Shown here piece after piece: positions 258 to 24,090 of a DNA stretch of 64,000 bases. Position numbers and translations under genes: made by a program. Every line of letters begins with the position of its first letter. Positions within the stretch are counted from its first letter, which is position 1. Source of the DNA: Candidatus Poribacteria bacterium (lineage in GTDB: Bacteria > Poribacteria > WGA-4E > PCPOR2b); NCBI GenBank assembly GCA_965220385.1, contig OZ244825.1:323143-387142 (forward strand). Direction: 5' to 3'. The notes under the pieces are model-generated. The model made no database searches. It saw nothing but the letters and a program-made list of their open reading frames with translations, and had not been told where the DNA came from.

Positions 258-1084
258 ACCTACTGCGTGTTGACATTTTGATGTTGCTAATTAGCAAACA
301 CTGTAGTCAGCGGGAAATCTGAAATGTAGCGCGAACTGTTAGTTTGCGTAGTGAGGGACCGCACTCTGATGGCCAGCACCGCCCCTCGCGCGGTTAGAAA
401 AGTTCCTTCCCGGTCACGCCTGCCCTCGGAACGGGGGAACGGACGATTCATCAGGCCTGTCCTGCCTGCTCTCGGCTTGTCGGAGTCCCGCTTGTCCCGA
501 TCCTATCGGGGGATTCATCGGGGGGATTTATCGGGGCGGCGACATGTGTGTCGTAGATCTGGTTATGTTTATAGTAAAAATTATAATTACTGATATATTT
601 GAATAATAACCACTGGTGCTAGTTTGCAGCTGTTGATAACGTCAAAGGTGATGCCCCGATAAATCGGGACAGGCTGTGAAACATCAAAACTATTGGCTTT
701 TGGGTGCCTTTAGCCCCGGAGGGGCGGCATGTTTATAGTACACGGATAAATAAATATCCCAAAGCCCCGGTTTCGAATCCCGATTTATCGGGGAGGGGCG
801 ACATGTGCAGCCGAAGGGTAGAACCAATGAGCTACCCTAATGCATCAATGAACGCTTCAACAATGTGGGAAAGATCCTCTCACTAACTAGCACTAAAGGT
901 CAATATGTATACCTGTTTGTATTGTTCACCATAATTGGGTATTGAGTATGAAAATTCGACCTGCGGGCTAACTACAACCTCCGTCGATATAGACGATAAA
1001 AGCTGATGGCCCGTCAAGCAATCCATAAAACCTGTATCAAACTGTTTGCGTGAACGAAATGTAGAGAATCATTGGGAGAACACT

Positions 1085-2701
1085 ATGAAACTGGCAGAAC
1101 TGATTATCACCGAAGCGAGAGGACGGGGACTAAAACACTTCTTCGGCCTTCCGGGAGGCGGATCTCCGCTGGATATGATGGAAGCCGGACGGCAGCTGGA
1201 CGTTAGCTTTGTCAGTGTTGCCCACGAATCGTCCGCCGCTATAATGGCAGCCTACTACGGCCTGATGCAAAACACCGCGGGATTGGCGCTGTCAGTGAAA
1301 GGGGTTGGCGCTGGTAATCTCGCCGGGGGTGCTGCCAATGCCTACTTTGAACGGATGCCGGTTGTCTGTCTCAGTGAGTCGTCGCCCACGGAGGTAGACC
1401 AAACAGAAATGGTACAGCATTGTGACCACACCCAACTGTTCGGGGCCGTGGTGAAGTATCAAGACACCTTAACCGCCGCCGAAGCAGCAGCCTCTGTACA
1501 AGAAGCCGTGTTTCAAGCGACGGACGGACGTCCCGGTCCCGCTCTCCTAAACCTGCCATCGGATATGGGACTGGTTGAATGCAGCGATCCCCTACCGGTC
1601 AAAACCTCATCGGACGCATCACTACCAGACAACGCTCAACTTGTCGCCGCTCGTAAATTCCTTCAAAACGCCTCCCAGCCGGTTGTCATCGCCGGCACAG
1701 ATGTCGTGCGGGCAGGCGCTATCAAAGAGCTGCAAGCCGTAGTCGAAAACATCGGCGCTGCGGTGTTGGTCAACATGGATGCACGCGGTGTCTTTCCCGA
1801 ATCCCATCTCCAGTGGGCGGGAGTCCTTACCGGCAACTACGGTTCCAACATCATCGAAACCGAGGTGATGGGCCAAGCGGATGCTGTCCTCCTGATCGGA
1901 GCGGACGGGATGATGACGCATACACCGTGGAACGTTGATCTGCCAACCTGTGAACTCGCTCTCCGACCGGAATACGAAGCACTGTCTCCCGATCCGAAGG
2001 TGCGGGTGGACGGGGACCTGAAGGAAACGCTCAAGGCGCTATCCGAGCACAGTCAACCGGGCTTTTCCGACGACCAGATCCAAAGGATACGCCACAAAGT
2101 TCTCCAAAATTTTAAGCGACCTGCGAACGCTCAATTCGCCGTCCAAGATATTATCGAAATCACCCGTGCCGTCCTGCCAGTGGATGGTGTCCTGTTTTCG
2201 GAGACCGGCGCTTACATTGCCATGCTTGAACATCTCTGGGGTGTGGATGACCCAAACACCTATTGGGGCACGGCGGGCGGACGAACCATGGGGCTGACAC
2301 TACCCGCAATTTTCGGTGCAAAGCTCGCGAAACCTGACATGCTCGCGGTAGGGATCGGCGGAGACGGAAGCTTGTTGATGCGCTTGGGTGAACTGGAAAC
2401 CTTTGCACGAACCGGTGTCGCAGCGCCGCTCATCATTATCAACGATCAAGCACTCGGAACCATGAAGTCCCGACAGAAATCGCGCGGCATGCCTGAGTAC
2501 GCTCTGGACTTCCACGCCGTCGATTTCGCCGGAATCGCCACGGCATGTGATCTAAAAGGAGTCACGGTGAACACACCTGAGCAGTTCGAAAGTGAGTTGA
2601 AAGTGGCGATGGACGCAGATCGAACGACGCTCATCGACGCACGGGTGGACGCACAGGCATATCAAGACAGCTTCGGACCAACGATCGGTGTGCTTGATTG
2701 A
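1085..2701 (+). CDS. Thiamine-pyrophosphate-dependent enzyme, acetolactate synthase large subunit / benzoylformate decarboxylase family. Start refined to the Met with a GGGAGA RBS; the ORF track starts at 1046.
   Basis: N-terminal TPP-enzyme pyrimidine-binding domain (GLPGGGSPLDMMEAG, HESSAAIMA). C-terminal TPP/Mg motif GIGGDGSLLMRLGELETF...IIINDQALG. About 550 aa, typical for the family. Confidence 0.8.
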   Translation: MKLAELIITEARGRGLKHFFGLPGGGSPLDMMEAGRQLDVSFVSVAHESSAAIMAAYYGLMQNTAGLALSVKGVGAGNLAGGAANAYFERMPVVCLSESSPTEVDQTEMVQHCDHTQLFGAVVKYQDTLTAAEAAASVQEAVFQATDGRPGPALLNLPSDMGLVECSDPLPVKTSSDASLPDNAQLVAARKFLQNASQPVVIAGTDVVRAGAIKELQAVVENIGAAVLVNMDARGVFPESHLQWAGVLTGNYGSNIIETEVMGQADAVLLIGADGMMTHTPWNVDLPTCELALRPEYEALSPDPKVRVDGDLKETLKALSEHSQPGFSDDQIQRIRHKVLQNFKRPANAQFAVQDIIEITRAVLPVDGVLFSETGAYIAMLEHLWGVDDPNTYWGTAGGRTMGLTLPAIFGAKLAKPDMLAVGIGGDGSLLMRLGELETFARTGVAAPLIIINDQALGTMKSRQKSRGMPEYALDFHAVDFAGIATACDLKGVTVNTPEQFESELKVAMDADRTTLIDARVDAQAYQDSFGPTIGVLD

Positions 2702-2752
2702 GTCACCCTCGTGCCTTCGCTAATCCGAAATGTTGTTAGGGAGAAAAACGCT

Positions 2753-3859
2753 ATGAAAATGAAAGCAGCCGTCCTCCACACAACCCCCGGGAAACTGTCC
2801 ATTGAAGAAGTTGACATCGCAGATCCCGGTCCAAGCGAAGTGCGCGTCAAGATTGCCGCGAGCGGTCTCTGTCACACGGACTGGGAAACAATGCACGGCT
2901 ACCAGCCTGTGAACCTGCCAGCCGTGATTGGCCATGAAGGTGCCGGTATTGTAGAGTCAGTCGGTCCAGGGGTCACCCGCGTCAAAGTTGGCGACCACGT
3001 CGCGTGCTCATGGAGCCCAAACTGCGGTCACTGCTTCTACTGCGACCACGGTCAGCCTATCCTCTGTGAGATTGCAAAAACTGCCAACGGACAAGGACTA
3101 CTGTTCGACGGCACGACGCGGATGCTCTTAGACGGGAAACCGGTCCATTACTACAGCCTCGTCTCCTCACACGCCGAGTATAATGTGATTCCCGAACAGG
3201 CGGCGGTGCCGCTGCGGGTAGATTTCCCGCTCGATCGGGCATCGCTACTCGGTTGTGCTGTCATGACCGGTTACGGCGGTGCTGTCCACGCAGGGCGCAT
3301 TAAGCCGGAGACCAGTGTTGTGGTAATCGGATGCGGGGCAGTTGGACTCAGCGCAATTCAAGGGGCTCGTATCTCTGGGGCGTCAATCATCGTGGGTGTC
3401 GATATCAATCCGCTGAAATTGCAGTGGGCGGAAAAGGTCGGCGCTACGCATGTTGTCGATAGCACGAAGGATGATCCGGTCGAATTTGTGCAGCATCTCA
3501 CGCAAGGACGAGGCGCCGATACCGCGATTGAAGCGGCGGGCCAAAATATCTCGATTCGACAAACGTTGGAAGCATCACGCCCCGGCGCACGTGTCGTCAT
3601 TCTCGGAAAAACCCCATACGGTGAAGAGGTCTCTTTTCCCTTCCATCTCATGATGGGCGAGCGCGAAATCGTCCGCACCTCCTACGGGATGAGTCGACCA
3701 CGCGTTGACTTCCCACGCTTGGCGAATCTGTATATGGAGGGGTGCCTGCTACTTGATGAAATGATTTCCAAGCGGCTATCCCTAGAGGAGATCAATGACG
3801 GCTTTGATGCCTTAGAAAAGGGAGATGTCGCACGGTCACTGGTTGTGTTTGATCTATAG
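2753..3859 (+). CDS. Zn-dependent alcohol dehydrogenase, MDR superfamily (class III ADH-like). Likely co-transcribed with the upstream TPP enzyme.
   Basis: GLCHTDWETMHG and VIGHEGAGIVESVG motifs. Structural-Zn Cys cluster CSWSPNCGHCFYCDHG. Rossmann motif VIGCGAVGLSAIQGA. GGGAGA RBS 7 nt before the ATG at 2753. Confidence 0.85.
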   Translation: MKMKAAVLHTTPGKLSIEEVDIADPGPSEVRVKIAASGLCHTDWETMHGYQPVNLPAVIGHEGAGIVESVGPGVTRVKVGDHVACSWSPNCGHCFYCDHGQPILCEIAKTANGQGLLFDGTTRMLLDGKPVHYYSLVSSHAEYNVIPEQAAVPLRVDFPLDRASLLGCAVMTGYGGAVHAGRIKPETSVVVIGCGAVGLSAIQGARISGASIIVGVDINPLKLQWAEKVGATHVVDSTKDDPVEFVQHLTQGRGADTAIEAAGQNISIRQTLEASRPGARVVILGKTPYGEEVSFPFHLMMGEREIVRTSYGMSRPRVDFPRLANLYMEGCLLLDEMISKRLSLEEINDGFDALEKGDVARSLVVFDL

Positions 3860-4092
3860 TCCGGCTTTGGATATGCCAATACACAAAATAAAACTTGATG
3901 GAATTGACTTTTGCGTGTATCATTTTCACTTGAGCTTTAGAAAGAATAGGCGATCTGCTGACTGGAAACGTAACGTACAGTCCATAGACAGGTTGATACT
4001 TTTGTTCTTGCCAATCCACAAGTCAGCCAAATGCCAAACATAATTCTGTGCCTTATCATTTATAACAAAGGGCAACCAAATCTAGGCGTAAA

Positions 4093-4713
4093 ATGAATCC
4101 TGCCCAAGCAATCCCCAAAATATCAGGCATCATCCTCGCCGCGGGACTGTCCTCCCGCATGGGTGAACCCAAGCAACTCCTTCCTTTCGGTGAAAGCACG
4201 ATTATTGAGACCGTGATAGATAGTCTGCTCGGATCCAAGCTGAACGAAGTTATCGTCGTTATTGGACACGAAGCGGAGAAGGTCCAAGCCCATATTCAGC
4301 ACAAACCGGTCAGAACTGTATTCAACCCTGACTATAAGGAAGGTATGCTGACCTCTGCACAGCGCGGAGTGGAATCAATCTCAGCGTCCGCCGATGCGTT
4401 TGCGATGACACTGGTAGATTTGCCGCTCATCACACCGGATTTAGTGGATATGGTCATTGACGAATACCTCCAAGCGGACGGCGGAATCGCGGTGCCAAGT
4501 TACAACTATCGCCGTGGGCACCCTGTTATTTTTGATCGACGCTATGCAGATGACATTCTCGGTCTGGATGAGGATAGCGGTGGGGTTCGGTCGCTTTTCA
4601 AGAAATATGCAGATGACATTCACTATGTAACTGTTGATACCGACCGAGTCTTGACGGACATCGACTATCGGAAAGATTACGAAGAAGCGCTACAGAAATC
4701 CTTGTCTGCGTGA
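4093..4713 (+). CDS. MobA-like NTP-transferase domain protein (molybdenum cofactor cytidylyltransferase MocA-like)
   Basis: N-terminal GIILAAGLSSRMGEPKQLLPF nucleotidyltransferase motif. About 200 aa. Sits upstream of coxD/coxE-like genes, as in xanthine/CO-dehydrogenase-family accessory clusters. Confidence 0.7.
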   Translation: MNPAQAIPKISGIILAAGLSSRMGEPKQLLPFGESTIIETVIDSLLGSKLNEVIVVIGHEAEKVQAHIQHKPVRTVFNPDYKEGMLTSAQRGVESISASADAFAMTLVDLPLITPDLVDMVIDEYLQADGGIAVPSYNYRRGHPVIFDRRYADDILGLDEDSGGVRSLFKKYADDIHYVTVDTDRVLTDIDYRKDYEEALQKSLSA

Positions 4714-12699: not shown

Positions 12700-12790
12700 A
12701 ATGAACCAATGTACTTCTTACGCATTACGTTTCACGTTTTACTATTAATGAACCCATGGACTAATACACTAATGAACCAACATCTACCTC
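12700..12790 (+). repeat. Composite repeat: AATGAACC(A) modules plus a TTTCACG heptads unit. Related to 14236-14300.
   Basis: CCAATGAACCAATG...CGCATTACGTTTCACGTTTTACT...TAATGAACCCATGGACTAATACACTAATGAACCAA. Confidence 0.65.
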
Positions 12791-14016
12791 AAATCCAAAC
12801 AGACCATCTCCTTCTGGGTTCGGAGATAAAGTTTCCCACCAGCCAATGTTGGCACGGTCCAACACTTATCATCGAACAACTGAAAAAGAGCCTTTTCTCT
12901 ATATTCGTCAGGGGTCGCTTCAGCTAATGCCAACTTTCCGCCCTCGCCAAGGATGATCAAGCAGCCATCCGCAAGCAGCAGCGAACCTTTCCCAAAGCCA
13001 CGGTGTCGCCACTGTTCCTCGCCCGTGTTCACCTCAATGCACGTTAAGATGGCATTGTCGAATCCGTACAGATATTCGCCCTGAAGCACCGATGAGTTGA
13101 AATGGTTTTTCATCACACGGCTCTTCCATACCTCTTCAATCCCTATTCCATCTCCATCGGCTATCATTCTGAGGAGCACGGCTCCCTTATCATAGGAAGC
13201 GGAGATAAAGATTTTATCGCCAGGGATGAAAACCGGTGTGGCGATATTGATCCCCTCTGGCCAAGCGTATTTCCAGTAAACCTGCCCGTTCTCTGGCGCC
13301 ACGGAGACGAGCGTCTTCGACGTTAGGAAAATGATTTGCCGAACTCCACCAAAATCGATAGAAATGGGTGATGAATACCCCACCGCGTCTGTGTGGGTTG
13401 CCCATACAACATCGCCGCTCTCTTTATCGAACGCGACAATCGCTCGCTCATCTTTCCCGCCAGCTTCAGCTATAACTAGATTTCCTTCGATTATAGGCGA
13501 TGAAGAGAAGCCCCAAGTCGGTATGCTGCTGCCGAACTCCTCTACGAAATTGTGTGACCATATCTTCGTCCCGCTGCGAGCGTCTAAAGCATAGAGTTTC
13601 CCTTCCGCCCCCAGCGCAAACACCGAATCACCATCAACAGTCGGCATAGAGCGGGGACCATCACCGCGTTGCTCAGTAAATTTTCCACCCGACTGAAATC
13701 GCCAGATCTCCTTACCGTCGGACGCATCCAGACAAATTACAAACTCATCATTCCCTTCAGCAAACATCGTGTAAGCTTTTCCCTGAGCGATAGAGATACC
13801 AGAGTAGCCATCCCCAAGCGGGATGTGCCACAACACTTCAGGACCTGCTTCGGGCCAGTTTTTGATAAATCCGGTTTCAGATGAAATTCCATCGCGATTG
13901 GGTCCCCGCCATTGCGGCCAATCTGCGTCAGCGCCCAATACGCTGCCAACCAAAAACCAAGCCCCAAATAACGCGACAGCGCATCTTCTAAGCGAGACAT
14001 AAACTCTATTTTCCAT
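12784..14016 (-). CDS. PQQ-repeat beta-propeller protein with signal peptide (BamB-like fold), paralogue family member
   Basis: N-terminal signal. WPQWRGPNRDGISSETG motif. Repeated hydrophobic-W beta-propeller blades. Close paralogue of 14336..15613. Confidence 0.8.
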   Translation of the reverse strand: MENRVYVSLRRCAVALFGAWFLVGSVLGADADWPQWRGPNRDGISSETGFIKNWPEAGPEVLWHIPLGDGYSGISIAQGKAYTMFAEGNDEFVICLDASDGKEIWRFQSGGKFTEQRGDGPRSMPTVDGDSVFALGAEGKLYALDARSGTKIWSHNFVEEFGSSIPTWGFSSSPIIEGNLVIAEAGGKDERAIVAFDKESGDVVWATHTDAVGYSSPISIDFGGVRQIIFLTSKTLVSVAPENGQVYWKYAWPEGINIATPVFIPGDKIFISASYDKGAVLLRMIADGDGIGIEEVWKSRVMKNHFNSSVLQGEYLYGFDNAILTCIEVNTGEEQWRHRGFGKGSLLLADGCLIILGEGGKLALAEATPDEYREKALFQLFDDKCWTVPTLAGGKLYLRTQKEMVCLDLR

Positions 14017-14335: not shown

Positions 14336-15613
14336 TTAATGTCTTCCTGCCATGTCTAAACAGACAATCTCCTCTTCATTTCGTAGGTAAAGTCTGCCAT
14401 CCGCGAGGGTCGGCGCAGTCCAACACAGTCCACTCAGCACTTTCGCGCTTACCTTCTCTATGTATCCTGCGGGCGTCGCTTCAGCTAATCCTAACTTGCC
14501 GCGGTCGCTGAGAATAATCAAGTGACCGTCAGCAAGTAGCACCGTCCCCTTTCCGAATCCACGGGTCTTCCACTGTTCCTCACCGGTGTCTGCCTCAATA
14601 CACTTTAAGATAGAGTTGTCGAAGCCATACAAGTAATTTTCGTGAAGCACTGATGAAGAAAACTGGTTCTTCATCTTGCGATTTTTCCAAAGCTCTCTAA
14701 TCCTTACTTTGCCTTGGTTTTCCTTAATTTGCGCCACCGCAGCCCGATCATCATCGTGCGAAATAAAAACTCGCATCTGTAGCACAGCAGCACCCTTATC
14801 GTACCCGGAAGAGATAAAGACTTTATCCGGCGGGATAAAGACTGGCGTTGCAGCGTTGACATCGTAGCCGGTCTTCCAAGGATACTGCCAGTAAATTGTT
14901 CCATCGGTTGGAGAGACAGAAACCAGTTTAGTTCCTGTAAAACAGATGATTTGTCGAATCCCCTTGACCGTGATGGCGATAGGCGACGAGTATCCGAGTT
15001 TGTCTTTATGGGAACTCCATATCACATCGCCGCTGCTTTTATTAAAGGCAACGATAGATTTTTCACCTTTCCCACCAACTTCAACCAGAAGCAGCTCCCC
15101 ATCAACCAATGGCGATGTGCTGAACCCCCACCTCGGCATTTTGCTGCCGAATTTTCGCTGCAAATCATGTGACCAGACCTTTTCCCCGTTCCCTGCGTTC
15201 AAGGCATACAGCTTGCCGTGGGCGCTAATTGTGAACAGGAGATCCCCGTCAATCGTCGGCGTTGCACGAGGTCCATTACCACCCTGGCCTTCATGGTAGT
15301 TGTCATCCGATCGGAAACGCCAGATCTCCCCTCCATCCGTAGCATTGAGGCAGACAACAAACTCATCGTTCCCTTTGGAGAACATCGTATAGACGCGTCC
15401 CTGAGAAACAGAGATGCCCGAAAATCCCTCTCCAAGTGAGACCTTCCAGAGCATCTTGGGACCACCCGCAGCCCACTCCTTAAGTATCCCTATTTCACTG
15501 GACACCCCATCGCGATTGGGACCCCGCCATTGGGGCCATTCCGTCGCGCTAGCCGTTAAAATAGCGCCGCACAGCAACGCGGATACAACCAAAAAAACTA
15601 TAACCTTTCTCAT
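14336..15613 (-). CDS. PQQ-repeat beta-propeller protein with signal peptide, paralogue of 12784..14016
   Basis: EWPQWRGPNRDGVSSEIG motif. Overall collinear similarity to the neighbouring paralogue. Confidence 0.8.
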   Translation of the reverse strand: MRKVIVFLVVSALLCGAILTASATEWPQWRGPNRDGVSSEIGILKEWAAGGPKMLWKVSLGEGFSGISVSQGRVYTMFSKGNDEFVVCLNATDGGEIWRFRSDDNYHEGQGGNGPRATPTIDGDLLFTISAHGKLYALNAGNGEKVWSHDLQRKFGSKMPRWGFSTSPLVDGELLLVEVGGKGEKSIVAFNKSSGDVIWSSHKDKLGYSSPIAITVKGIRQIICFTGTKLVSVSPTDGTIYWQYPWKTGYDVNAATPVFIPPDKVFISSGYDKGAAVLQMRVFISHDDDRAAVAQIKENQGKVRIRELWKNRKMKNQFSSSVLHENYLYGFDNSILKCIEADTGEEQWKTRGFGKGTVLLADGHLIILSDRGKLGLAEATPAGYIEKVSAKVLSGLCWTAPTLADGRLYLRNEEEIVCLDMAGRH

Positions 15614-15641: not shown

Positions 15642-18137
15642 TTATTGTTTTTCATCTGCCACCCCGTGTTCTTGGCAATGGGCACGGATGATGGGCAAAA
15701 AGATATCAGCATATTTCTGAATTTTCGCAATACCGACACCGTGAATCCCCGTGAACGATTCTATCGATTGCGGGAGGCGGGCAGCCATTTCTTTCAACGT
15801 CCTGTCGTGAAAAACAACGTACGACGGCACCTGTTCCGCTTCCGATAACTCCTTGCGTGTAGCGCGGAGTTGCTCAAGAAGTTCAGGGCTGTATTCGTTC
15901 AATTCATCGGAGGTTACAGCGTAGCTGTTCGAATCTTCTGCTATCTGATTTGCCGAATGCACTGACATCCCTTGGAATTGTTCATTACTTCTGAGCACCG
16001 CCCAACCTTCCTGCGTCAAACGAATACTCCCATGTTCCGAATCCCTTTTAAGTAGCCCGTGTTGGAGGAACTGTAACGATAGACGTTTCCACTGTTCTTT
16101 GCTGTACTCCTTGCCAATGCCGTAGACAGAGAGTTGATCTGCACCGTTCTGAATAACTTTTTTCGCTTTCGATCCGCGCAAAACATCGATAATGTACGTT
16201 TCCCCAAAAATCTGCCGTGTCCTAACAACACATGATAGAAATTTTTGGGCGGGCACCGTCAGGTCGACCAGCTCCATCTCTGTTTGACAGCAATTGTCGC
16301 ACATCCCACAATTTGGCTTCTCATAACGATCTCCGAAATAAGCCAATAATCCTTTGCGGCGACACGCTGTAGAAGCTGCCCAATCAACAAGGGTCTCTAA
16401 TCGTTGCAATGCTCCCTCTCGCTCAGATAACGCACCTTGATCTATGAAATATTTGATAGTGTCTACATCGCCATAGCTAAAAAGTAACAGGCAATCCGCT
16501 TGAAGGCCATCCCGGCCGGCGCGCCCAATCTCTTGGTAGTAGGATTCAGGTTCCTTCGGCAAACCCGCATGGAGCACGAAGCGCACATCCTCTTTATCAA
16601 TTCCCATACCGAACGCAATTGTTGCGACTATCACCCGAGTGTCATCGTTGATGAAAGCTTCCTGATTTTGCTTGCGGGTTTCGCTATCCAAGTCTGCGTG
16701 ATAGGGGAGAGCCGAGATCCCATTTTCAACTAATTCATGACATAGCGACTCAACCTGTTTCTTCGTCTGACAGTAGATGATGCCGCAGTCATCACGGTGG
16801 GTATCAAGAAACTCCAATGTTTGCTTGGATAAATCAAGCTTCGGTTCAACGGTGATGAAAAGATTTTCTCTGTCAAAACTGGCAATGAATTCGTTGTCCG
16901 CCTGAATCTTAAGCGATTGTTTGATGTCCTGTTGGACCCGTGGTGTTGCTGTAGCCGTCAGCGCGACGCAAACGGCGTTCGCAAATCGCTCTCGAACAGA
17001 AACTAGTTGTCGATACTCCGGACGAAAATCGTGACCCCATTGTGAAATGCAGTGCGCTTCATCGATCGCAAGGCATGCCACATTCGATTCATCGAGCATC
17101 AACAGGATTTCAGGTCGCATGAGCGTCTCAGGGGCAACGTAAAGTAAGGTAATCTCACCCCGTCTGACACGTTGCATCGTGGCAACATATTCTGAGTTAC
17201 TGAGGGTGCTGTTGAGACAAACAGCACGAATACCCCGCCCCTGCAGCTGCATCACCTGGTCCTGCATCAGCGAAATCAGCGGAGATACAACGACGGTTAC
17301 GCGATCGAAAATAAGGGCGGGCAGTTGGTAACAGAGTGACTTCCCACCGCCCGTCGGCAGAACAATCAACGCATCGTAGCGGTTAAGGAGGTGATGGATG
17401 ATTTCTGCTTGCAACGGCCGGAACTGTTCATACCCGAAAACGTTCTTGAGCACCGCTAACGGTGTCTGAAGATATGTTTGAGGCGGGAGGGATTCTGTCT
17501 CAATGGCACGTTTGGATTCGTCTGGGAGAAGCCAGCCGGAAAGTTGTGCGTAACAGCATTCTTCTGCGTCCGGCGTATCTTTCGGTCGCCACCAATGCGC
17601 CAGTGAAACACGTAAGAGCGTGCCTGCCGGAATGACTTCAAGCGGCTCTTGGAAGCCGACGAAGGTGAGTGTGTGACCACCATTTTCGGTGGGATAGCGA
17701 TACCGCACACGCTTCCCTTCCGTATCACGAATAAGCGGCTGATCCGGTCGCCAGAACGTCGTGCTGTAGGGTGGAACACCGCTCTGCTTGGCGATATAGA
17801 GCGCGCCACTCTCTGTGGACTGCAGCAAACCTTCGTACAAAACGGTTGGATCTCCGACTTTCGGTGGTATCAACAGTTCGACAGCACCCTCCAGCTCCCC
17901 TGTGTTGAGAAGATGCCGTTTTTCATATACTACAATATTTTCGTTATGCGGCGGAATCAGAGACGCTGCCGGTTTAGAGGAAATCTCCCAAACATCTCCG
18001 ACCTCATATTCTCGATTTGCGCCGTCATGTGGATCTTCGTTGAACGGTATGAGCCGAACGCTTTCACCATTTTCTGTAATTGCGCCTATACACGCGCCGC
18101 CACCCATTCGAGTTTTAGCGACAATCAAGACTTTCAT
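15642..18137 (-). CDS. recQ: ATP-dependent DNA helicase RecQ with an unusual ~215 aa N-terminal extension of unknown function
   Basis: RecQ motifs: FGYEQFRPLQAEII, LPTGGGKSLCYQLPAL, DEAHCISQWGHDFRPEY. Zn-binding CxxC cluster (CRRKGLLAYFGD...CGMCDNC). C-terminal HRDC-like region. Residues 1-215 have no recognisable helicase motifs. The start overlaps the stop of the upstream DUF488 gene (ATGA). Confidence 0.9.
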   Translation of the reverse strand: MKVLIVAKTRMGGGACIGAITENGESVRLIPFNEDPHDGANREYEVGDVWEISSKPAASLIPPHNENIVVYEKRHLLNTGELEGAVELLIPPKVGDPTVLYEGLLQSTESGALYIAKQSGVPPYSTTFWRPDQPLIRDTEGKRVRYRYPTENGGHTLTFVGFQEPLEVIPAGTLLRVSLAHWWRPKDTPDAEECCYAQLSGWLLPDESKRAIETESLPPQTYLQTPLAVLKNVFGYEQFRPLQAEIIHHLLNRYDALIVLPTGGGKSLCYQLPALIFDRVTVVVSPLISLMQDQVMQLQGRGIRAVCLNSTLSNSEYVATMQRVRRGEITLLYVAPETLMRPEILLMLDESNVACLAIDEAHCISQWGHDFRPEYRQLVSVRERFANAVCVALTATATPRVQQDIKQSLKIQADNEFIASFDRENLFITVEPKLDLSKQTLEFLDTHRDDCGIIYCQTKKQVESLCHELVENGISALPYHADLDSETRKQNQEAFINDDTRVIVATIAFGMGIDKEDVRFVLHAGLPKEPESYYQEIGRAGRDGLQADCLLLFSYGDVDTIKYFIDQGALSEREGALQRLETLVDWAASTACRRKGLLAYFGDRYEKPNCGMCDNCCQTEMELVDLTVPAQKFLSCVVRTRQIFGETYIIDVLRGSKAKKVIQNGADQLSVYGIGKEYSKEQWKRLSLQFLQHGLLKRDSEHGSIRLTQEGWAVLRSNEQFQGMSVHSANQIAEDSNSYAVTSDELNEYSPELLEQLRATRKELSEAEQVPSYVVFHDRTLKEMAARLPQSIESFTGIHGVGIAKIQKYADIFLPIIRAHCQEHGVADEKQ

Positions 18138-18622
18138 GGTAGGATGTTCTCAACTTCCAATTTGAGTTCTTTTGCCAGTGTCTCTGCTACCAATGAGCGA
18201 TGGCATGCTTCAGGAGCTTTTTCAACACAAAAGAGAGCCACAACCTGTGCGTCCTCTTCAAGATCCTCCAGCAGGCTGTGTGAATCAAACGCTGCGAGGC
18301 ATTCAGTTCGATACGCTGTAATGAATTCCTCCCCCAATACAGTGCGTTTGCGTTTGGCAGTTTTTGTCGCTTTATCTGCTGCCGCTTGCCTGTCGCGAAC
18401 CCCTTGCGTTGGCGCAAGGTCCTTGCGATAGAGGTAGCGGATCCCGAGTTCCGCCAGCCGTTCCTGCAACCGCAGGCTGTTCGCGAACGCGTAAGTCGAA
18501 CCTCGCACCCCTCGTCGACTGCGAATATCACAGAAGGTATCCACCTTTGCCTTGCACAAAGCCTGAAAAAAGCTGTCTTCATCAAACCCGTATACACCGA
18601 TGGTGACAATTTTAGGTTTCAT
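18134..18622 (-). CDS. DUF488-family protein (paralogue 2)
   Basis: IVTIGVYGFDEDSFFQAL...DIRSRRGV pattern typical of DUF488 (IxTIGYG...F...L....I..LxDVR). Translationally coupled to recQ. Confidence 0.6.
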   Translation of the reverse strand: MKPKIVTIGVYGFDEDSFFQALCKAKVDTFCDIRSRRGVRGSTYAFANSLRLQERLAELGIRYLYRKDLAPTQGVRDRQAAADKATKTAKRKRTVLGEEFITAYRTECLAAFDSHSLLEDLEEDAQVVALFCVEKAPEACHRSLVAETLAKELKLEVENILP

Positions 18623-18628
18623 CGTGAA

Positions 18629-19186
18629 TTACCGGTACTGCTTGCGCGAGTGGAATGTGTCTTCACCAAACAGTCGCATCTGTCCCCCTGTCAACCTGTC
18701 AATGACTTTTTCTTGGGTCTGCTGTTCATCATTTTCGTCAATGTGAGTCACGAGGATGTCTTGTGCATCAAGCGATGCTCCGATGAGTTTACTTCGGTGG
18801 CACTGCTCCGGCTTTCCCTCGCTACACATGAGCGCAACGCATTGCTGTTGAGCGAAGGCAGTTTGAAGGCGTGCAACCCCGTTCTGGTAGATTTTGGTGT
18901 CTTTTACCTTTTCGTAGTCCACCTGTCCTTCTTCATCGTAACAGGTTTCGTCATCGGGGTGTCCACCCAACGTATCGCCCATGAACACATACCGAATTCC
19001 GTACCTTTCCAATTCCGCTGCCAACGCTTCTTTGGAAAATTCAGGTTTATAGCGAGAATAAGGGGCTGAGCGCACGTCGATGAGATAGGCAATCTCATGT
19101 TGTTGAAGGGTTTCGATGAATTCCTCAATTGAACGGCTACCGTAACCGATAGTATAGATGGGGATGGGATCTTGCAAGTTTTCCAT
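18629..19186 (-). CDS. DUF488-family protein (paralogue 1)
   Basis: IYTIGYGSRSIEEFIETLQQHEIAYLIDVRSAPYSRYKPEFSKEAL matches the DUF488 core. Lies 6 nt upstream of the second paralogue. Confidence 0.6.
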   Translation of the reverse strand: MENLQDPIPIYTIGYGSRSIEEFIETLQQHEIAYLIDVRSAPYSRYKPEFSKEALAAELERYGIRYVFMGDTLGGHPDDETCYDEEGQVDYEKVKDTKIYQNGVARLQTAFAQQQCVALMCSEGKPEQCHRSKLIGASLDAQDILVTHIDENDEQQTQEKVIDRLTGGQMRLFGEDTFHSRKQYR

Positions 19187-19582
19187 GATAAGTTGATATT
19201 ATGGTACGGAATACAAAAAAAGACAACAGAATCTTATGGGATGCCTCAGAGGCATAGCTGTGTTATCCAGAGTTATTCAGTTTTTGGCAAAACGGTGCCG
19301 TGTGTAGAAGCGCGGTTCCCGCGCCCTACTTCAACAGACGGACGAGGAGACCTCGCTTTACAATCTCTTTACCAAGCTATCAGAAAATTCTTGCCTTCTG
19401 TTGCAGGATTTGTTACGCTAATCCAAGTTACTAAGGCGCATTGACATTTTGCTGTTACCAACCTGGTTTTTGGTAGATCTCTCAAAGTAGTACCCCCACT
19501 CTATTGTACCGTCGTATGCCTCATAGTTACGGCATACAGCGTATACCTACCACTCTGTGACAACTTGCACTAAAGGATAGCT

Positions 19583-20587
19583 ATGCAACTTCCCGAAATC
19601 GCACAGTATCATATCCAGGAACGCTGCACAGAGCAGAGCTACATGCGCGGCTTAGACTACTTCTACGACGGAGCAATTAGCACCCCGACCCTCCACAACT
19701 ATACCCTGTCGGGAACGTGCGAGGGAACAGACATCGAACCGTATCGCGTCACGGTCGAATTGACCCCGACTGGGATTGCCACTGCCGACTGTTCGTGCCT
19801 ATACGACTGGGGCGGAGATTGTAAACACATTGTTGCACTCCTGTTGACCTACGTCAACGCGCCGGACACCATTCTTTCCCTTGAACCCTTGTATGCCACA
19901 CTTGAGGCACAACCTAAGTCAAGCCTGCTACAGATTATTTCTGAGCTTCTCAAATATGCACCGGAACTGGTTCCCATTGTACAGGCATATTCAGACACTC
20001 CCGGTCCCCTACAGGAGTCCGGATCGCTTCCGCTCGTCGCAGTTTACCAGGAACAGATTAATAGCATCTTTAGGGACAGTTTTACTGAACAACATCAATT
20101 TGATAGTGGATTCACTCAACTTGAAGTACTGCAACAGAAGGCGGAGTTACTTGGACAGCAGGGCAAAGCGGAGCACGCACTTTCAGTCCTTCACGCGCTA
20201 ATACATCAATCTGTCGTACACTACTCCGACACCTCCCAGAAAAGCGGATTGATCGAATTCGTCGAGGAATGCCTAATCTCGTTCTCAGAAATCGCTGTAG
20301 ACGCGCCCGAGTCCGTTACCCTCCTTGAACATTGCCGAATGCTATTGCGACTGAGTTTTGATGCAGAACAGGTCTTTACACCACTACTGACATCTTCCCT
20401 AGCAGAGCTCTGTTGGCGACAAGAGATAGCGGACCTACCAGTAGCTATTGAACAGGATCTTATGGAACAAGGTCTTGATAAGAGTCCAGATCGACAGGCG
20501 CATGTTCAGCTCCTGCTCACGCTATATTTTCAATCAGGTCGTACTGAAGATTACCGCCAGCTCGCCCAATCCGAAGAGGAAGAATAG
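19583..20587 (+). CDS. SWIM zinc-finger domain protein
   Basis: CxCx8CxH SWIM signature DCSCLYDWGGDCKHIVALL near the N-terminus. The rest is alpha-helical with no other recognised domain. Divergent from the DUF488-RecQ operon. Confidence 0.55.
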   Translation: MQLPEIAQYHIQERCTEQSYMRGLDYFYDGAISTPTLHNYTLSGTCEGTDIEPYRVTVELTPTGIATADCSCLYDWGGDCKHIVALLLTYVNAPDTILSLEPLYATLEAQPKSSLLQIISELLKYAPELVPIVQAYSDTPGPLQESGSLPLVAVYQEQINSIFRDSFTEQHQFDSGFTQLEVLQQKAELLGQQGKAEHALSVLHALIHQSVVHYSDTSQKSGLIEFVEECLISFSEIAVDAPESVTLLEHCRMLLRLSFDAEQVFTPLLTSSLAELCWRQEIADLPVAIEQDLMEQGLDKSPDRQAHVQLLLTLYFQSGRTEDYRQLAQSEEEE

Positions 20588-22926: not shown

Positions 22927-24090
22927 TTATTCCCCCTTGCCAAAACAGTATATTCTACCATCGTCCACGCCAATCACCAGTCTTCCTTCCGCAACGCTTG
23001 GAGAAGCGATAATGGATGCCCCAATTACAAATTCCCAGACCTTTTCGCCCGTATCAAGACTTAGTGCAACCAGTTCCCCGCCCATCGTCCCAACGAAAAC
23101 GCGTTCGCCAACAATCACCGGCGAGGAGTCCACTCGCGATGTTGCGGGATATATCCATAACGGTTCGCCTGTCCCCGGCTGCAGCGCATGGACCATCTTG
23201 TCTCGTCCACCGATAATAACTATATCCGCCGTCACAGCCGCCGAAGCGTAGAATGGGAAATGCCGTTCCGGGTGCTGATACCACCATAAAATTTCTGAAC
23301 TGTCCAGGCCCGCACACAACACCTGATTCCCAAACGTTCCTGCATACACCCGGTTGTTCAAAATAGCAGGGCTAGCAGCCACATAGTCACCCAATGCAAT
23401 TTTCTGATGCTCCGCACCATCAGCAATATTAATGACACGCAGATAACCATCGCACCCTGAAACAATGACCGTGCCATTAACAATCGCCGGCGTCCCATGG
23501 ACGTATCCTTCCGTCTCGAACTTCCAAACTAGCGAACCATCTTCGACAGAAAGACAGTAAAGATACTGGTCATAAGAACCGAACAACAACCGATCTTGTG
23601 CAACGTTGGCGGACGAAATGATTTCGGCCTCGGCTTCGAAGGTCCATCTCCCTTTACCCGTCTGAGCGTCCACAGCATGAAATACACCCATGCTGTCGCC
23701 AAAGTGTACCACATTTTTATAGACGGTGGCAGAGGATTTAATTTCACCGGACGCTTGATATTGCCACTTTAATGCCCCGTTACTAAGATCGATAGCGTAA
23801 AGATAGCCGTCTAAGGTTCCAATATAAACCGTTCCCGCTGCAATAGCGGCGGTTGACTCAATCCCATCTGGTGTCTCAAATGCCCAGAGCAGTTCAAGGT
23901 TTTCGGACAATTCACCCGTAGCGACACCGGTGAGTTGGGGGTTCCCACGAAAGCTGAGCCAACCGTCAGTGGAGGCATCGCTCTGTCCGATAGGATGAAT
24001 CAGAATATAACTCAGAAAAATGTAAAATCTGAAACGCCAAATATGAAGCGTAATCTGCTGTGGAGCTTGTGTATTAATAGGTTGCTTCAT
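22927..24090 (-). CDS. PQQ-repeat beta-propeller protein (secreted)
   Basis: Repeated blades (VYIGTLDGYLYAIDLSNGALKWQY, LLFGSYDQYLYCLSVEDGSLVWKF, etc.). N-terminal hydrophobic signal. Overlaps the upstream Fe-ADH gene by 17 nt. Confidence 0.8.
   Translation of the reverse strand: MKQPINTQAPQQITLHIWRFRFYIFLSYILIHPIGQSDASTDGWLSFRGNPQLTGVATGELSENLELLWAFETPDGIESTAAIAAGTVYIGTLDGYLYAIDLSNGALKWQYQASGEIKSSATVYKNVVHFGDSMGVFHAVDAQTGKGRWTFEAEAEIISSANVAQDRLLFGSYDQYLYCLSVEDGSLVWKFETEGYVHGTPAIVNGTVIVSGCDGYLRVINIADGAEHQKIALGDYVAASPAILNNRVYAGTFGNQVLCAGLDSSEILWWYQHPERHFPFYASAAVTADIVIIGGRDKMVHALQPGTGEPLWIYPATSRVDSSPVIVGERVFVGTMGGELVALSLDTGEKVWEFVIGASIIASPSVAEGRLVIGVDDGRIYCFGKGE

What the first reader, a model, noticed from the sequence alone, without database searches (positions are those of the whole stretch)
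15642..20587. DUF488-DUF488-RecQ operon in which RecQ carries a ~215 aa uncharacterised N-terminal domain, divergent from a SWIM zinc-finger gene
Three minus-strand genes are tightly packed: a 6 nt gap, then an ATGA stop/start overlap. Two DUF488 paralogues are translationally coupled to a full-length RecQ (helicase core, Zn-binding and HRDC-like regions). RecQ has an extra ~215 aa N-terminal domain (MKVLIVAKTRMGGGACIGAITENGESVRLIPF ... AEECCYAQLSGW) with no helicase motifs and no domain I can name. A SWIM Zn-finger protein (CxCx8CxH) is transcribed divergently from the shared 400 bp intergenic region. SWIM domains bind nucleic acid and often accompany helicase/translocase modules. A housekeeping recQ is normally a lone gene without such an extension. 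This arrangement suggests a dedicated DNA-repair or defence-like module built around DUF488.
Basis: partly seen in the sequence, partly recalled or inferred. Interest (0 to 1): 0.7.

Follow-up and report, generated by a model that had tools for sequence, protein, structure and literature searches.

The report
DUF488 pair plus OB-domain RecQ operon
A sponge-symbiont (Poribacteria) genome carries a real, strongly conserved three-gene operon: two phosphatase-like DUF488 proteins and a RecQ DNA helicase whose extra N-terminal part is the already catalogued "DuOB" double OB-fold domain. It most likely processes single-stranded DNA or DNA ends, but nobody has tested it.

Summary
The genes, the 6-nt gap, the ATGA overlap and the 396-bp divergent spacer are as described. 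The 215-aa N-terminal extension of RecQ is real. It is not unnameable: it is a full-length match to Pfam PF22557, DuOB ("Dual OB-containing domain"). An AlphaFold model (pLDDT 93) shows two OB folds.

The second DUF488 gene belongs to Pfam DUF488-N3a. Its model has the fold of cysteine phosphatases, and the conserved Cys/His/Arg residues sit where the phosphate-binding loop lies.

The order DUF488a, DUF488b, DuOB-RecQ recurs in all 80 related genomes examined, mostly Poribacteria plus Chloroflexota. The ATGA overlap is kept in 69 of them. More distant metagenomic relatives show that the true core is DUF488a–DUF488b–DuOB, usually without RecQ. RecQ is a lineage-specific fusion partner. A split version and a DuOB–HRDC fusion also exist.

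The SWIM gene is not part of the module. It is present in only 3 of the 80 loci.

The neighbours are housekeeping genes and no phage copies were found, so the evidence for a defence role is weak.

Best reading: an ssDNA/DNA-end processing module attached to RecQ. This is a new member of a computationally catalogued but experimentally untouched system.

The parts
19198..19226 (-). Sigma-70-like promoter (TTGTCT, 17 nt, CATAAT). It ends 11 nt before the DUF488a ATG, so the mRNA is probably near-leaderless.
   Evidence: Consensus scan. The same -35/-10 pair is conserved at this position in Poribacteria orthologous loci. Function not tested.
18629..19186 (-). DUF488a: first DUF488 paralogue, 185 aa. 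It keeps the C-x-E...C-H-R-S motif and has a conserved C-terminal tail with GQxxLFG.
   Evidence: PF04343, 92 bits. PADLOC PDC-M45B, 174 bits. Motif kept in 76/76 genome orthologues and 62/64 metagenome/other-locus copies of at least 150 aa.
18134..18622 (-). DUF488b: second DUF488 paralogue, 162 aa, of the Pfam DUF488-N3a subclade. Its stop overlaps the RecQ start (ATGA).
17532..18137 (-). DuOB domain (residues 1-202 of the 831-aa protein): two OB folds, presumed ssDNA/DNA binding.
16506..17420 (-). RecQ SF2 helicase core (residues 240-544), with the PTGGGKS and DEAH motifs intact.
   Evidence: PF00270 and PF00271. TIGR01389 recQ, 716.9 bits, above the cut-off. Motifs read in the translation.
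15975..16475 (-). RecQ zinc-binding and RQC (winged-helix) domains (residues 555-721).
   Evidence: PF16124, 62 bits; PF09382, 109 bits.
15687..15884 (-). Single HRDC domain (residues 752-817).
   Evidence: PF00570, 66 bits. Orthologues in other Poribacteria have 2-4 tandem copies.
19583..20587 (+). SWIM zinc-finger gene. It is adjacent and divergent, but I judge it NOT to be part of the module.
   Evidence: PF04434, 28.6 bits. A homologue is present at this position in only 3 of 80 related loci, and the Yip1-like or HemN gene abuts the operon in the others.

Best explanation
The locus is a Poribacteria copy of a conserved cassette, DUF488a - DUF488b(N3a) - DuOB, whose DuOB gene is fused in frame to a complete RecQ helicase. 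Shown here: one promoter-like site; tight coupling of the three genes; two DUF488 paralogues that both keep a Cys...Cys-His-Arg site on a cysteine-phosphatase-type Rossmannoid fold; an N-terminal double OB-fold domain; and an intact RecQ core with Zn, RQC and HRDC domains. Inferred mechanism: the three products act as one complex. DuOB binds single-stranded DNA, or a DNA end or gap, and carries the DUF488 pair with it. RecQ unwinds from that site in the 3'-5' direction. The DUF488 pair removes or transfers a terminal phosphate or phospho-sugar group at the exposed DNA end (end 'healing'). The likely purpose is chromosomal DNA repair or recombination rather than phage defence. In Poribacteria the locus looks vertically inherited and may be the lineage's working RecQ.
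For: The gene order is conserved in 80/80 genome loci from 63 Poribacteria-labelled, 13 Chloroflexota and 4 other MAGs. DuOB is in frame with RecQ in 76/80. The ATGA overlap between DUF488b and DuOB is kept in 69/80. The core triad without RecQ occurs in 58/86 distant loci in the same order. A split version has separate, abutting DuOB and RecQ genes (L085). A DuOB-HRDC fusion exists (P0250), as do DUF488b-DuOB fusions (P0118, P0079). DuOB is made of OB folds. DUF488b has the fold of PTP/DSP phosphatases, including the baculovirus RNA 5'-phosphatase and PIR1. The C-x-E...C-H-R motif is kept in 155/155 and 130/132 copies. RecQ passes the equivalog cut-off. The flanks are housekeeping genes in stable synteny (HemN, Yip1-like, PQQ propellers, miaA, mnmA). 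Identity to relatives is similar for operon genes and neighbours. No phage copies were found. Other partners seen next to the triad also handle DNA ends: Cas4-Cas1 on the Rhodothermus marinus plasmid pRMAR01 and a ParE-UvrD helicase.
Confidence: 0.45

Rival explanations
1. The cassette is an anti-phage or anti-plasmid conflict system. DuOB senses invader ssDNA or ends, the DUF488 pair modifies or blocks nucleic-acid termini, and RecQ acts as motor or effector.
For: DUF488a matches the PADLOC candidate PDC-M45B at 174 bits, and DUF488b matches PDC-M45C and PDC-M19A. Some standalone triads sit beside Type III R-M plus SWI2/SNF2 (L081), DUF499/ASCH, SNF2/DrmD-like, WYL and MTase genes, or a CRISPR locus on a plasmid. 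The family is sparse and patchy: 886 clusters among 1.84 billion representatives. A preprint states that DUF488 occurs in prophage and defence-island neighbourhoods. From memory, Burroughs & Aravind 2023 place DUF488-clade enzymes in virus-host conflict systems; I could not open that paper.
Against: In Poribacteria the flanks are housekeeping genes in conserved synteny. Among 133 neighbours of standalone triads, no family recurs in more than 4, and defence-like hits number 2-3 each. The genes do not evolve fast compared with their neighbours. No nuclease or other toxic effector is present. PDC-M45 is only a candidate, its A component was not found here, and DuOB has no PADLOC model.
Confidence: 0.22
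2. The protein is simply the housekeeping RecQ of these phyla with a built-in SSB-like OB module. The two DUF488 enzymes act on a non-DNA substrate (nucleotide, ADP-ribose-derived sugar phosphate, or RNA end) and are linked for regulatory reasons only.
For: The RecQ core is canonical. OB folds are common helicase accessories. DUF488 relatives are fused to varied domains such as ParB-CTPase and HTH. My fold matches include sugar and glucan phosphatases (SEX4, laforin).
Against: The DUF488b-DuOB coupling is the most conserved feature and persists where RecQ is absent. DUF488b-DuOB fusion proteins exist. This argues that the DUF488 pair works with DuOB itself.
Confidence: 0.2
3. It is a four-gene module that includes the divergent SWIM protein.
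For: Divergent arrangement with a shared 396-bp spacer. The SWIM domain is confirmed. The arrangement is kept in the three closest genomes, L002-L004.
Against: The SWIM gene is absent from that position in 77 of 80 loci. These include close relatives that keep the same flanking Yip1-like and HemN genes. It is absent from all distant triads.
Confidence: 0.03
4. The N-terminal extension is an annotation artefact, and the true RecQ start is near residue 200.
For: None beyond the unusual length.
Against: There is no Met between residues 12 and 260. The region is a full-length Pfam domain with a confident fold. It is conserved and in frame in 76/80 loci.
Confidence: 0.01

Closest known systems
DUF488-N3a / DuOB gene neighbourhoods catalogued in Pfam (PF22751, PF22557). 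[quoted passage not shown] The paper's existence is confirmed from a reference list, but I could not read its content.
   Same: Both Pfam models match above their cut-offs. The fold of DUF488b agrees with a rhodanese-phosphatase-type assignment. DuOB is two OB folds.
   Different: Nothing shows a difference. I cannot verify whether the RecQ fusion, the obligatory a+b pair or the Poribacteria distribution were described there. No experimental work is known to me.
Bacterial RecQ (E. coli RecQ; Deinococcus radiodurans RecQ with three HRDC domains, the latter from my own knowledge)
   Same: Complete helicase core, Zn-binding, RQC and HRDC domains. The score is above the TIGR01389 cut-off. Poribacteria orthologues with 2-4 HRDC repeats resemble the Deinococcus architecture.
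   Different: It carries a 202-aa DuOB domain at the N-terminus and is translationally coupled to two DUF488 genes. It scores below the enterobacterial-type PRK11057 cut-off (603 against 1015 bits).
PADLOC phage-defence candidate PDC-M45 (components B and C are DUF488 proteins)
   Same: DUF488a matches PDC-M45B nearly full length at 174 bits. DUF488b matches PDC-M45C at 45 bits. A pair of unlike DUF488 genes is the shared theme.
   Different: The A component was not identified here. DuOB and RecQ are not PDC-M45 models. PDC systems are untested candidates, and I found no paper mentioning PDC-M45.
Eukaryotic RecQ-OB partnerships (BLM with RMI1/RMI2, RecQ helicases with RPA; from general knowledge) and HIN-200 tandem-OB DNA sensors
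   Different: This is analogy only. Sequence identity is 6-14%, TM-scores are 0.31-0.42, and there is no evidence of common descent. Here the OB unit is fused in cis.
Cysteine-dependent polynucleotide and sugar phosphatases (baculovirus RNA 5'-phosphatase, PIR1, SEX4/laforin)
   Different: The motif is C-x-E-x5-C-H-R rather than H-C-x5-R. Methylase half-domains score equally well. No activity has been shown.

Membership tests
RecQ helicase (NCBIfam TIGR01389; Pfam architecture) | SF2 core with Walker A and DEAH motifs, scoring above the curated family cut-off | tested here: met
   PF00270 87 bits and PF00271 88 bits. TIGR01389 716.9 against 640.2 bits. PTGGGKS and DEAHCISQWGHDFR read in the translation.
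RecQ helicase (NCBIfam TIGR01389; Pfam architecture) | RecQ-specific Zn-binding, RQC winged-helix and HRDC domains | tested here: met
   PF16124 62 bits, PF09382 109 bits, PF00570 66 bits.
RecQ helicase (NCBIfam TIGR01389; Pfam architecture) | ATP-dependent 3'-5' DNA unwinding | not testable with these tools
   Needs a biochemical assay.
DuOB (Pfam PF22557) | Full-length match above the gathering score | tested here: met
   88.4 bits against 27, profile 1-210/210, residues 1-202. All 120 listed homologues but one (P0073) carry PF22557.
DuOB (Pfam PF22557) | Two OB-fold barrels | tested here: met
DuOB (Pfam PF22557) | Nucleic-acid binding | not testable with these tools
   Inferred from the fold and from conserved aromatics (W50, F128, W129, Y148, F162).
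DUF488 (PF04343) and subclade DUF488-N3a (PF22751) | Match above the gathering score | tested here: met
   DUF488a: PF04343 92.1 bits, but PF22751 only 19.2 against 27, so it is not N3a. DUF488b: PF04343 49.7 bits and PF22751 30.9 against 27, so it is N3a. Precomputed N3a hits on the homologues.
DUF488 (PF04343) and subclade DUF488-N3a (PF22751) | Retention of the conserved Cys/His/Arg ('active') site | tested here: met
   C-x-E...C-H-R found in 155/155 genome and 130/132 metagenome copies of both paralogues.
Rhodanese-phosphatase-type cysteine phosphatases | Rossmannoid fold with a nucleophilic Cys and an Arg in a strand-loop-helix phosphate-binding loop (CX5R) | tested here: inconclusive
PADLOC candidate system PDC-M45 | Presence of components A, B and C together | tested here: not met
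   B is strong (174 bits) and C weak (45 bits). No gene here matches an A model. DuOB has no PADLOC hit.
Dpd (7-deazaguanine DNA modification) system, DpdF | DpdF equivalog score and neighbouring dpd genes | tested here: not met
   The PADLOC DpdF models hit strongly (698 bits), but these models are RecQ-like. NCBIfam DpdF scores 198 bits against a 550-bit cut-off. No other dpd genes occur among the neighbours.
   SWIM domain present (28.6 bits), but a homologue is adjacent in only 3/80 loci.

The most novel reading that the evidence does not exclude
DUF488a/DUF488b/DuOB is a self-contained, previously untested DNA-end-handling machine. It would be a heteromeric Cys-phosphatase-like enzyme pair carried on a tandem-OB DNA-end or ssDNA reader, and it plugs into different end-processing partners: RecQ by fusion in Poribacteria and Chloroflexota, Cas4-Cas1 on a Rhodothermus plasmid, and UvrD-type helicases. 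In Poribacteria it would define a new RecQ pathway in which the lineage's main RecQ is obligatorily coupled to chemical end-healing. It would also give the first function for the widespread DUF488 family, which includes E. coli YeaO.
Probability: 0.3. Interest if true: 0.65.

Novelty: new member of a known kind. Interest (0 to 1): 0.4.

Why it matters
DUF488 is a widespread family with no established function; a 2024 preprint states that there is no literature on its E. coli member YeaO. This operon gives a clear, testable context. Two always-paired, always "active" DUF488 enzymes are translationally coupled to a tandem-OB domain, which in two phyla is welded to a canonical RecQ. That points experiments at DNA ends and ssDNA.

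The work also identifies a cultured, genetically accessible carrier of the core triad: Rhodothermus marinus DSM 4252 plasmid pRMAR01, where the triad sits next to Cas4-Cas1.

For Poribacteria, which are uncultured sponge symbionts, it suggests a lineage-wide peculiarity of recombinational repair.

For annotation, it shows that the PADLOC "DpdF" hits on this protein are ordinary RecQ similarity, and that the SWIM neighbour is incidental.

Tried and rejected
- **Literature:** searches for DUF488+RecQ, DuOB, PDC-M45 and the RapZ-C-DUF488-DUF4326 clade found no paper describing this system. One search was a poorly chosen query and gave only noise. The likely source paper (PMC10034599) and PMC7685563 are not held.
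- **ARPP domain:** I considered that the ARPP domain of Iyer et al. 2022, a beta-rich partner of rhodanese-phosphatase enzymes with a conserved Cys and Gln, might be DuOB. Its described topology and contexts differ, so I treat it only as an analogy.
- **Solved structures:** sequence search of the PDB with both DUF488 proteins found nothing meaningful.
- **Other libraries:** PHROGs and PADLOC have no model for DuOB.
- **Mobile elements:** the viral contig scan and the phage tblastn found no DuOB. The plasmid search found a single record.
- **afdb50 fold library:** unavailable.
- **LexA-type operator:** I looked for a conserved operator upstream of the operon. Only the -35/-10 pair is conserved.
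- **Fourth conserved gene:** I looked around both the RecQ-fused operons and the standalone triads. None was found.
- **Second recQ:** none in the 64-kb window.
- **Census artefact:** in high-GC metagenome loci my ORF picker sometimes chose antisense ORFs over the DUF488 genes (for example L085). The "no DUF488 upstream" counts are therefore overestimates.


Full report
**Observation**

- RecQ-like protein: 15642..18137(-), 831 aa.
- Second DUF488 protein: 18134..18622(-), 162 aa.
- First DUF488 protein: 18629..19186(-), 185 aa.
- Divergent SWIM protein: 19583..20587(+), 334 aa.

The sequence shows the 6-nt gap between the two DUF488 genes directly. It also shows the ATGA overlap, in which the DUF488b stop (TGA) shares bases with the RecQ ATG, and the 396-bp divergent spacer.

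Pfam confirms DUF488 twice, SWIM, and the full RecQ set of DEAD, Helicase_C, RecQ_Zn_bind, RQC and HRDC. The helicase part passes the NCBIfam recQ equivalog cut-off, 716.9 against 640.2 bits.

**The N-terminal extension**

The extension is real, and it has a name. Residues 1-202 match Pfam PF22557, DuOB ("Dual OB-containing domain"), over the whole profile (1-210/210, 88 bits against a 27-bit cut-off, E 8.9e-25).

There is no internal Met between residues 12 and 260. A search of 5.8 billion proteins found 252 relatives, and all but one of the 120 listed carry PF22557.

An alignment of 28 of them shows an invariant core: R28, G47, W50, P63, H64, S125, F128, W129, D132, Y148 and G161-F162-Q163. 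C16, E66, C195 and Q198 are nearly invariant.

So the domain is a double OB fold with no close solved relative.

**The DUF488 genes**

Both match PF04343. The second one (DUF488b) also passes the cut-off of PF22751, "Active DUF488-N3 subclade" (30.9 against 27 bits). All but two of its 120 best relatives carry that precomputed annotation, and all carry PF04343.

PADLOC places DUF488a in the candidate PDC-M45B at 174 bits. It places DUF488b, weakly, in PDC-M45C and PDC-M19A.

Neither protein has a sequence relative in the PDB.

In the model the conserved C132 ends the strand at residues 127-132. C140-H141-R142-S143 opens the helix at residues 141-153. That is the position of the phosphate-binding loop in PTP-type enzymes. 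This positional equivalence is my inference, and the spacing is longer than CX5R.

Both paralogues keep C-x-E...C-H-R in 155/155 genome copies and 130/132 metagenome copies. The pair therefore consists of two apparently competent sites, not one active and one degenerate.

**Conservation of the arrangement**

A scan of one genome per GTDB species found 125 genomes with a DuOB relative. The 80 best loci are labelled as follows:
- 63 Poribacteria, with the best at 88-89% identity, so the window is from a Poribacteria genome;
- 13 Chloroflexota;
- 2 unlabelled;
- 1 "Opitutales";
- 1 "Latescibacterota".

tblastn with the window proteins shows DUF488a, then DUF488b, then DuOB, then the RecQ core, on one strand, in every locus that has the upstream DNA. 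DuOB is in the same reading frame as the helicase in 76 of 80. The other four are split by a frame change. The 4-nt DUF488b/DuOB overlap is kept in 69 of 80.

**The SWIM gene**

A SWIM homologue is found in only three loci, L002-L004. In other close relatives the same flanking genes abut the operon without it. The Yip1-like gene ends about 180 bp from DUF488a in L008-L010 and L013. HemN is directly upstream in L011, L012, L040, L045 and L054. The SWIM gene is a lineage-specific insertion, not a partner.

**What the core module is**

A DuOB profile search of 1.84 billion representatives finds 886 clusters (391 at E of 1e-30 or better). Most are standalone proteins of 200-215 aa. RecQ-length proteins are a minority clade nearest the query.

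Single look-ups show several variants:
- a two-gene DUF488+DuOB unit beside a Type III R-M system (L081);
- DUF488+DUF488-N3a+DuOB without RecQ (L083);
- a split version with a separate 211-aa DuOB gene abutting an 829-aa RecQ gene (L085);
- a lone DuOB (L084).

A metagenome scan seeded with diverse standalone DuOBs found more than 536 loci. The census pooled its best 80 with the six loci fetched earlier (five look-ups and the plasmid hit). In 58 of these 86 loci, two DUF488 genes (a-type then b-type) precede a standalone DuOB in the same order. Most of the remainder are truncated contigs or ORF-calling artefacts.

Fusions seen are DuOB-RecQ, DuOB-HRDC without a helicase core (P0250) and DUF488b-DuOB (P0079, P0118).

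The conserved unit is therefore DUF488a-DUF488b-DuOB. RecQ is a partner recruited by fusion in Poribacteria and Chloroflexota.

**Repair or defence?**

*In Poribacteria.* The flanks are housekeeping genes in stable synteny (HemN, a Yip1-like membrane protein, PQQ-type propellers, miaA, mnmA). No further gene is conserved in the operon's orientation. Identities to relatives are similar for operon genes and neighbours. Against L008, for example, HemN is 90% and PQQ 87%, while DUF488a is 85%, DUF488b 90%, DuOB 77% and RecQ 75%.

*Around standalone triads.* The 133 neighbouring proteins fall into 143 Pfam families, and none occurs in more than four proteins. Defence-like hits (SNF2/DrmD, ResIII, WYL, MTase) number two or three each.

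*On mobile elements.* No DuOB was found in IMG/VR contigs or GenBank phages. The one plasmid hit is Rhodothermus marinus DSM 4252 pRMAR01. There the triad (WP_012845321, WP_012845320, WP_012845319) lies directly upstream of a Cas4-Cas1 fusion, Cas2 and type III CRISPR genes.

*Experimental trace.* The only one I found for any DUF488 protein is a preprint. It reports that an E. coli yeaO deletion redirected CRISPR spacer acquisition to the insG locus, and it notes that there is no literature on yeaO.

*Assessment.* The evidence favours a chromosomal DNA-transaction role. It does not exclude a conflict role for the mobile, standalone versions.

**Proposed mechanism**

Shown here:
- A promoter-like TTGTCT-17-CATAAT ends 11 nt before the first ATG and is conserved across orthologues.
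- The three genes are tightly coupled.
- The RecQ is intact.
- The N-terminal domain is a tandem OB.
- Both DUF488 enzymes are phosphatase-fold proteins that keep their site.

Inferred:
- The products form one complex.
- DuOB binds ssDNA or an end and carries the DUF488 pair.
- RecQ unwinds.
- The DUF488 pair removes or transfers a terminal phosphate or phospho-sugar group.

I put about 0.45 on this reading, about 0.2 on a defence system, and about 0.2 on a housekeeping RecQ whose DUF488 neighbours act on a non-DNA substrate.

**Comparison with what is known**

The Pfam families DuOB and DUF488-N3a show that this neighbourhood has already been catalogued. From memory they come from Burroughs & Aravind 2023, which defined a RapZ-C-DUF488-DUF4326 clade and predicted DNA-end processing in conflict systems. 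I confirmed that the paper exists but could not read it.

The strong PADLOC "DpdF" hits reflect RecQ-like models. NCBIfam DpdF scores 198 bits, far below its 550-bit cut-off, and no dpd genes are nearby. This is not a Dpd system.

I file the locus as a new member of a known, computationally described but experimentally uncharacterised kind.

Noticed in passing
L034:8001-11381, L023, L024, L026, L036, L042, L052, L064 (RecQ C-termini): Many Poribacteria DuOB-RecQ orthologues (up to 1126 aa) carry 2-4 tandem repeats of the HRDC region. This resembles the three-HRDC RecQ of Deinococcus. The window protein has a single HRDC.
   Followed up: partly
L086 (NC_013502.1, Rhodothermus marinus DSM 4252 plasmid pRMAR01) 5911-9684: The DUF488 / DUF488-N3a / DuOB triad sits directly upstream of a Cas4-Cas1 fusion (525 aa), Cas2 and type III CRISPR genes, on a plasmid of a cultured organism. 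This gives a possible experimental handle and a second link to DNA-end processing.
   Followed up: partly
window 19198-19226 (-) and the equivalent position in L002-L067: A conserved -35 (TTGnnn) and -10 ((C/G)ATAAT) pair ends about 11 nt before the DUF488a start codon, with no room for a normal leader or Shine-Dalgarno sequence. The operon mRNA may be leaderless or nearly so.
   Followed up: partly
L007:5984-7221; L077:7206-7829: An IS3-like transposase pair is inserted inside DUF488a in L007. A DJ-1/PfpI-like gene lies between DUF488b and DuOB in L077 (Caldilineales). L066 has an unexplained 1-kb spacer at the same junction.
   Followed up: partly
L005 (CBDBFA010000003.1, 'Opitutales') and L007 (OZ253501.1, 'Latescibacterota'): Two MAGs labelled as other phyla carry operons about 80% identical in protein sequence to the Poribacteria ones. 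This suggests a mislabelled or mis-binned genome, or a recent transfer.
   Followed up: no
P0250 (464 aa); P0309 (434 aa); P0318 (490 aa): P0250 is a DuOB fused to an HRDC domain without any helicase core. P0309 and P0318 have C-terminal extensions of 230-290 aa with no Pfam match.
   Followed up: partly
window 18629-18706 (-), DUF488a residues about 160-185: The a-type DUF488 has a conserved C-terminal tail with a GQxxLFG motif. The motif is also present in the Rhodothermus copy and lies outside the DUF488 Pfam domain. It could be a docking peptide. Unexplained.
   Followed up: no
window 12784-14016 (-), 14336-15613 (-), 22927-24090 (-): Three paralogous secreted PQQ-like beta-propeller proteins flank the operon. 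The one at 14336-15613 starts only 28 nt after the RecQ stop on the same strand and could be co-transcribed. That adjacency is kept in about 15 related loci.
   Followed up: partly
window 15642-18137 (-) against PADLOC: The PADLOC DpdF models PDLC02861 and PDLC02864 score about 700 bits on what is a canonical RecQ. Automated defence annotation would mislabel this gene as DpdF.
   Followed up: yes
L120-L122 (metagenome) 680-4692: One group of standalone triads lies downstream of a DUF499 ATPase and an ASCH-DUF7680 protein. Another (L087) lies upstream of a ParE-toxin-UvrD helicase fusion. These are possible accessory partners in some lineages.
   Followed up: partly
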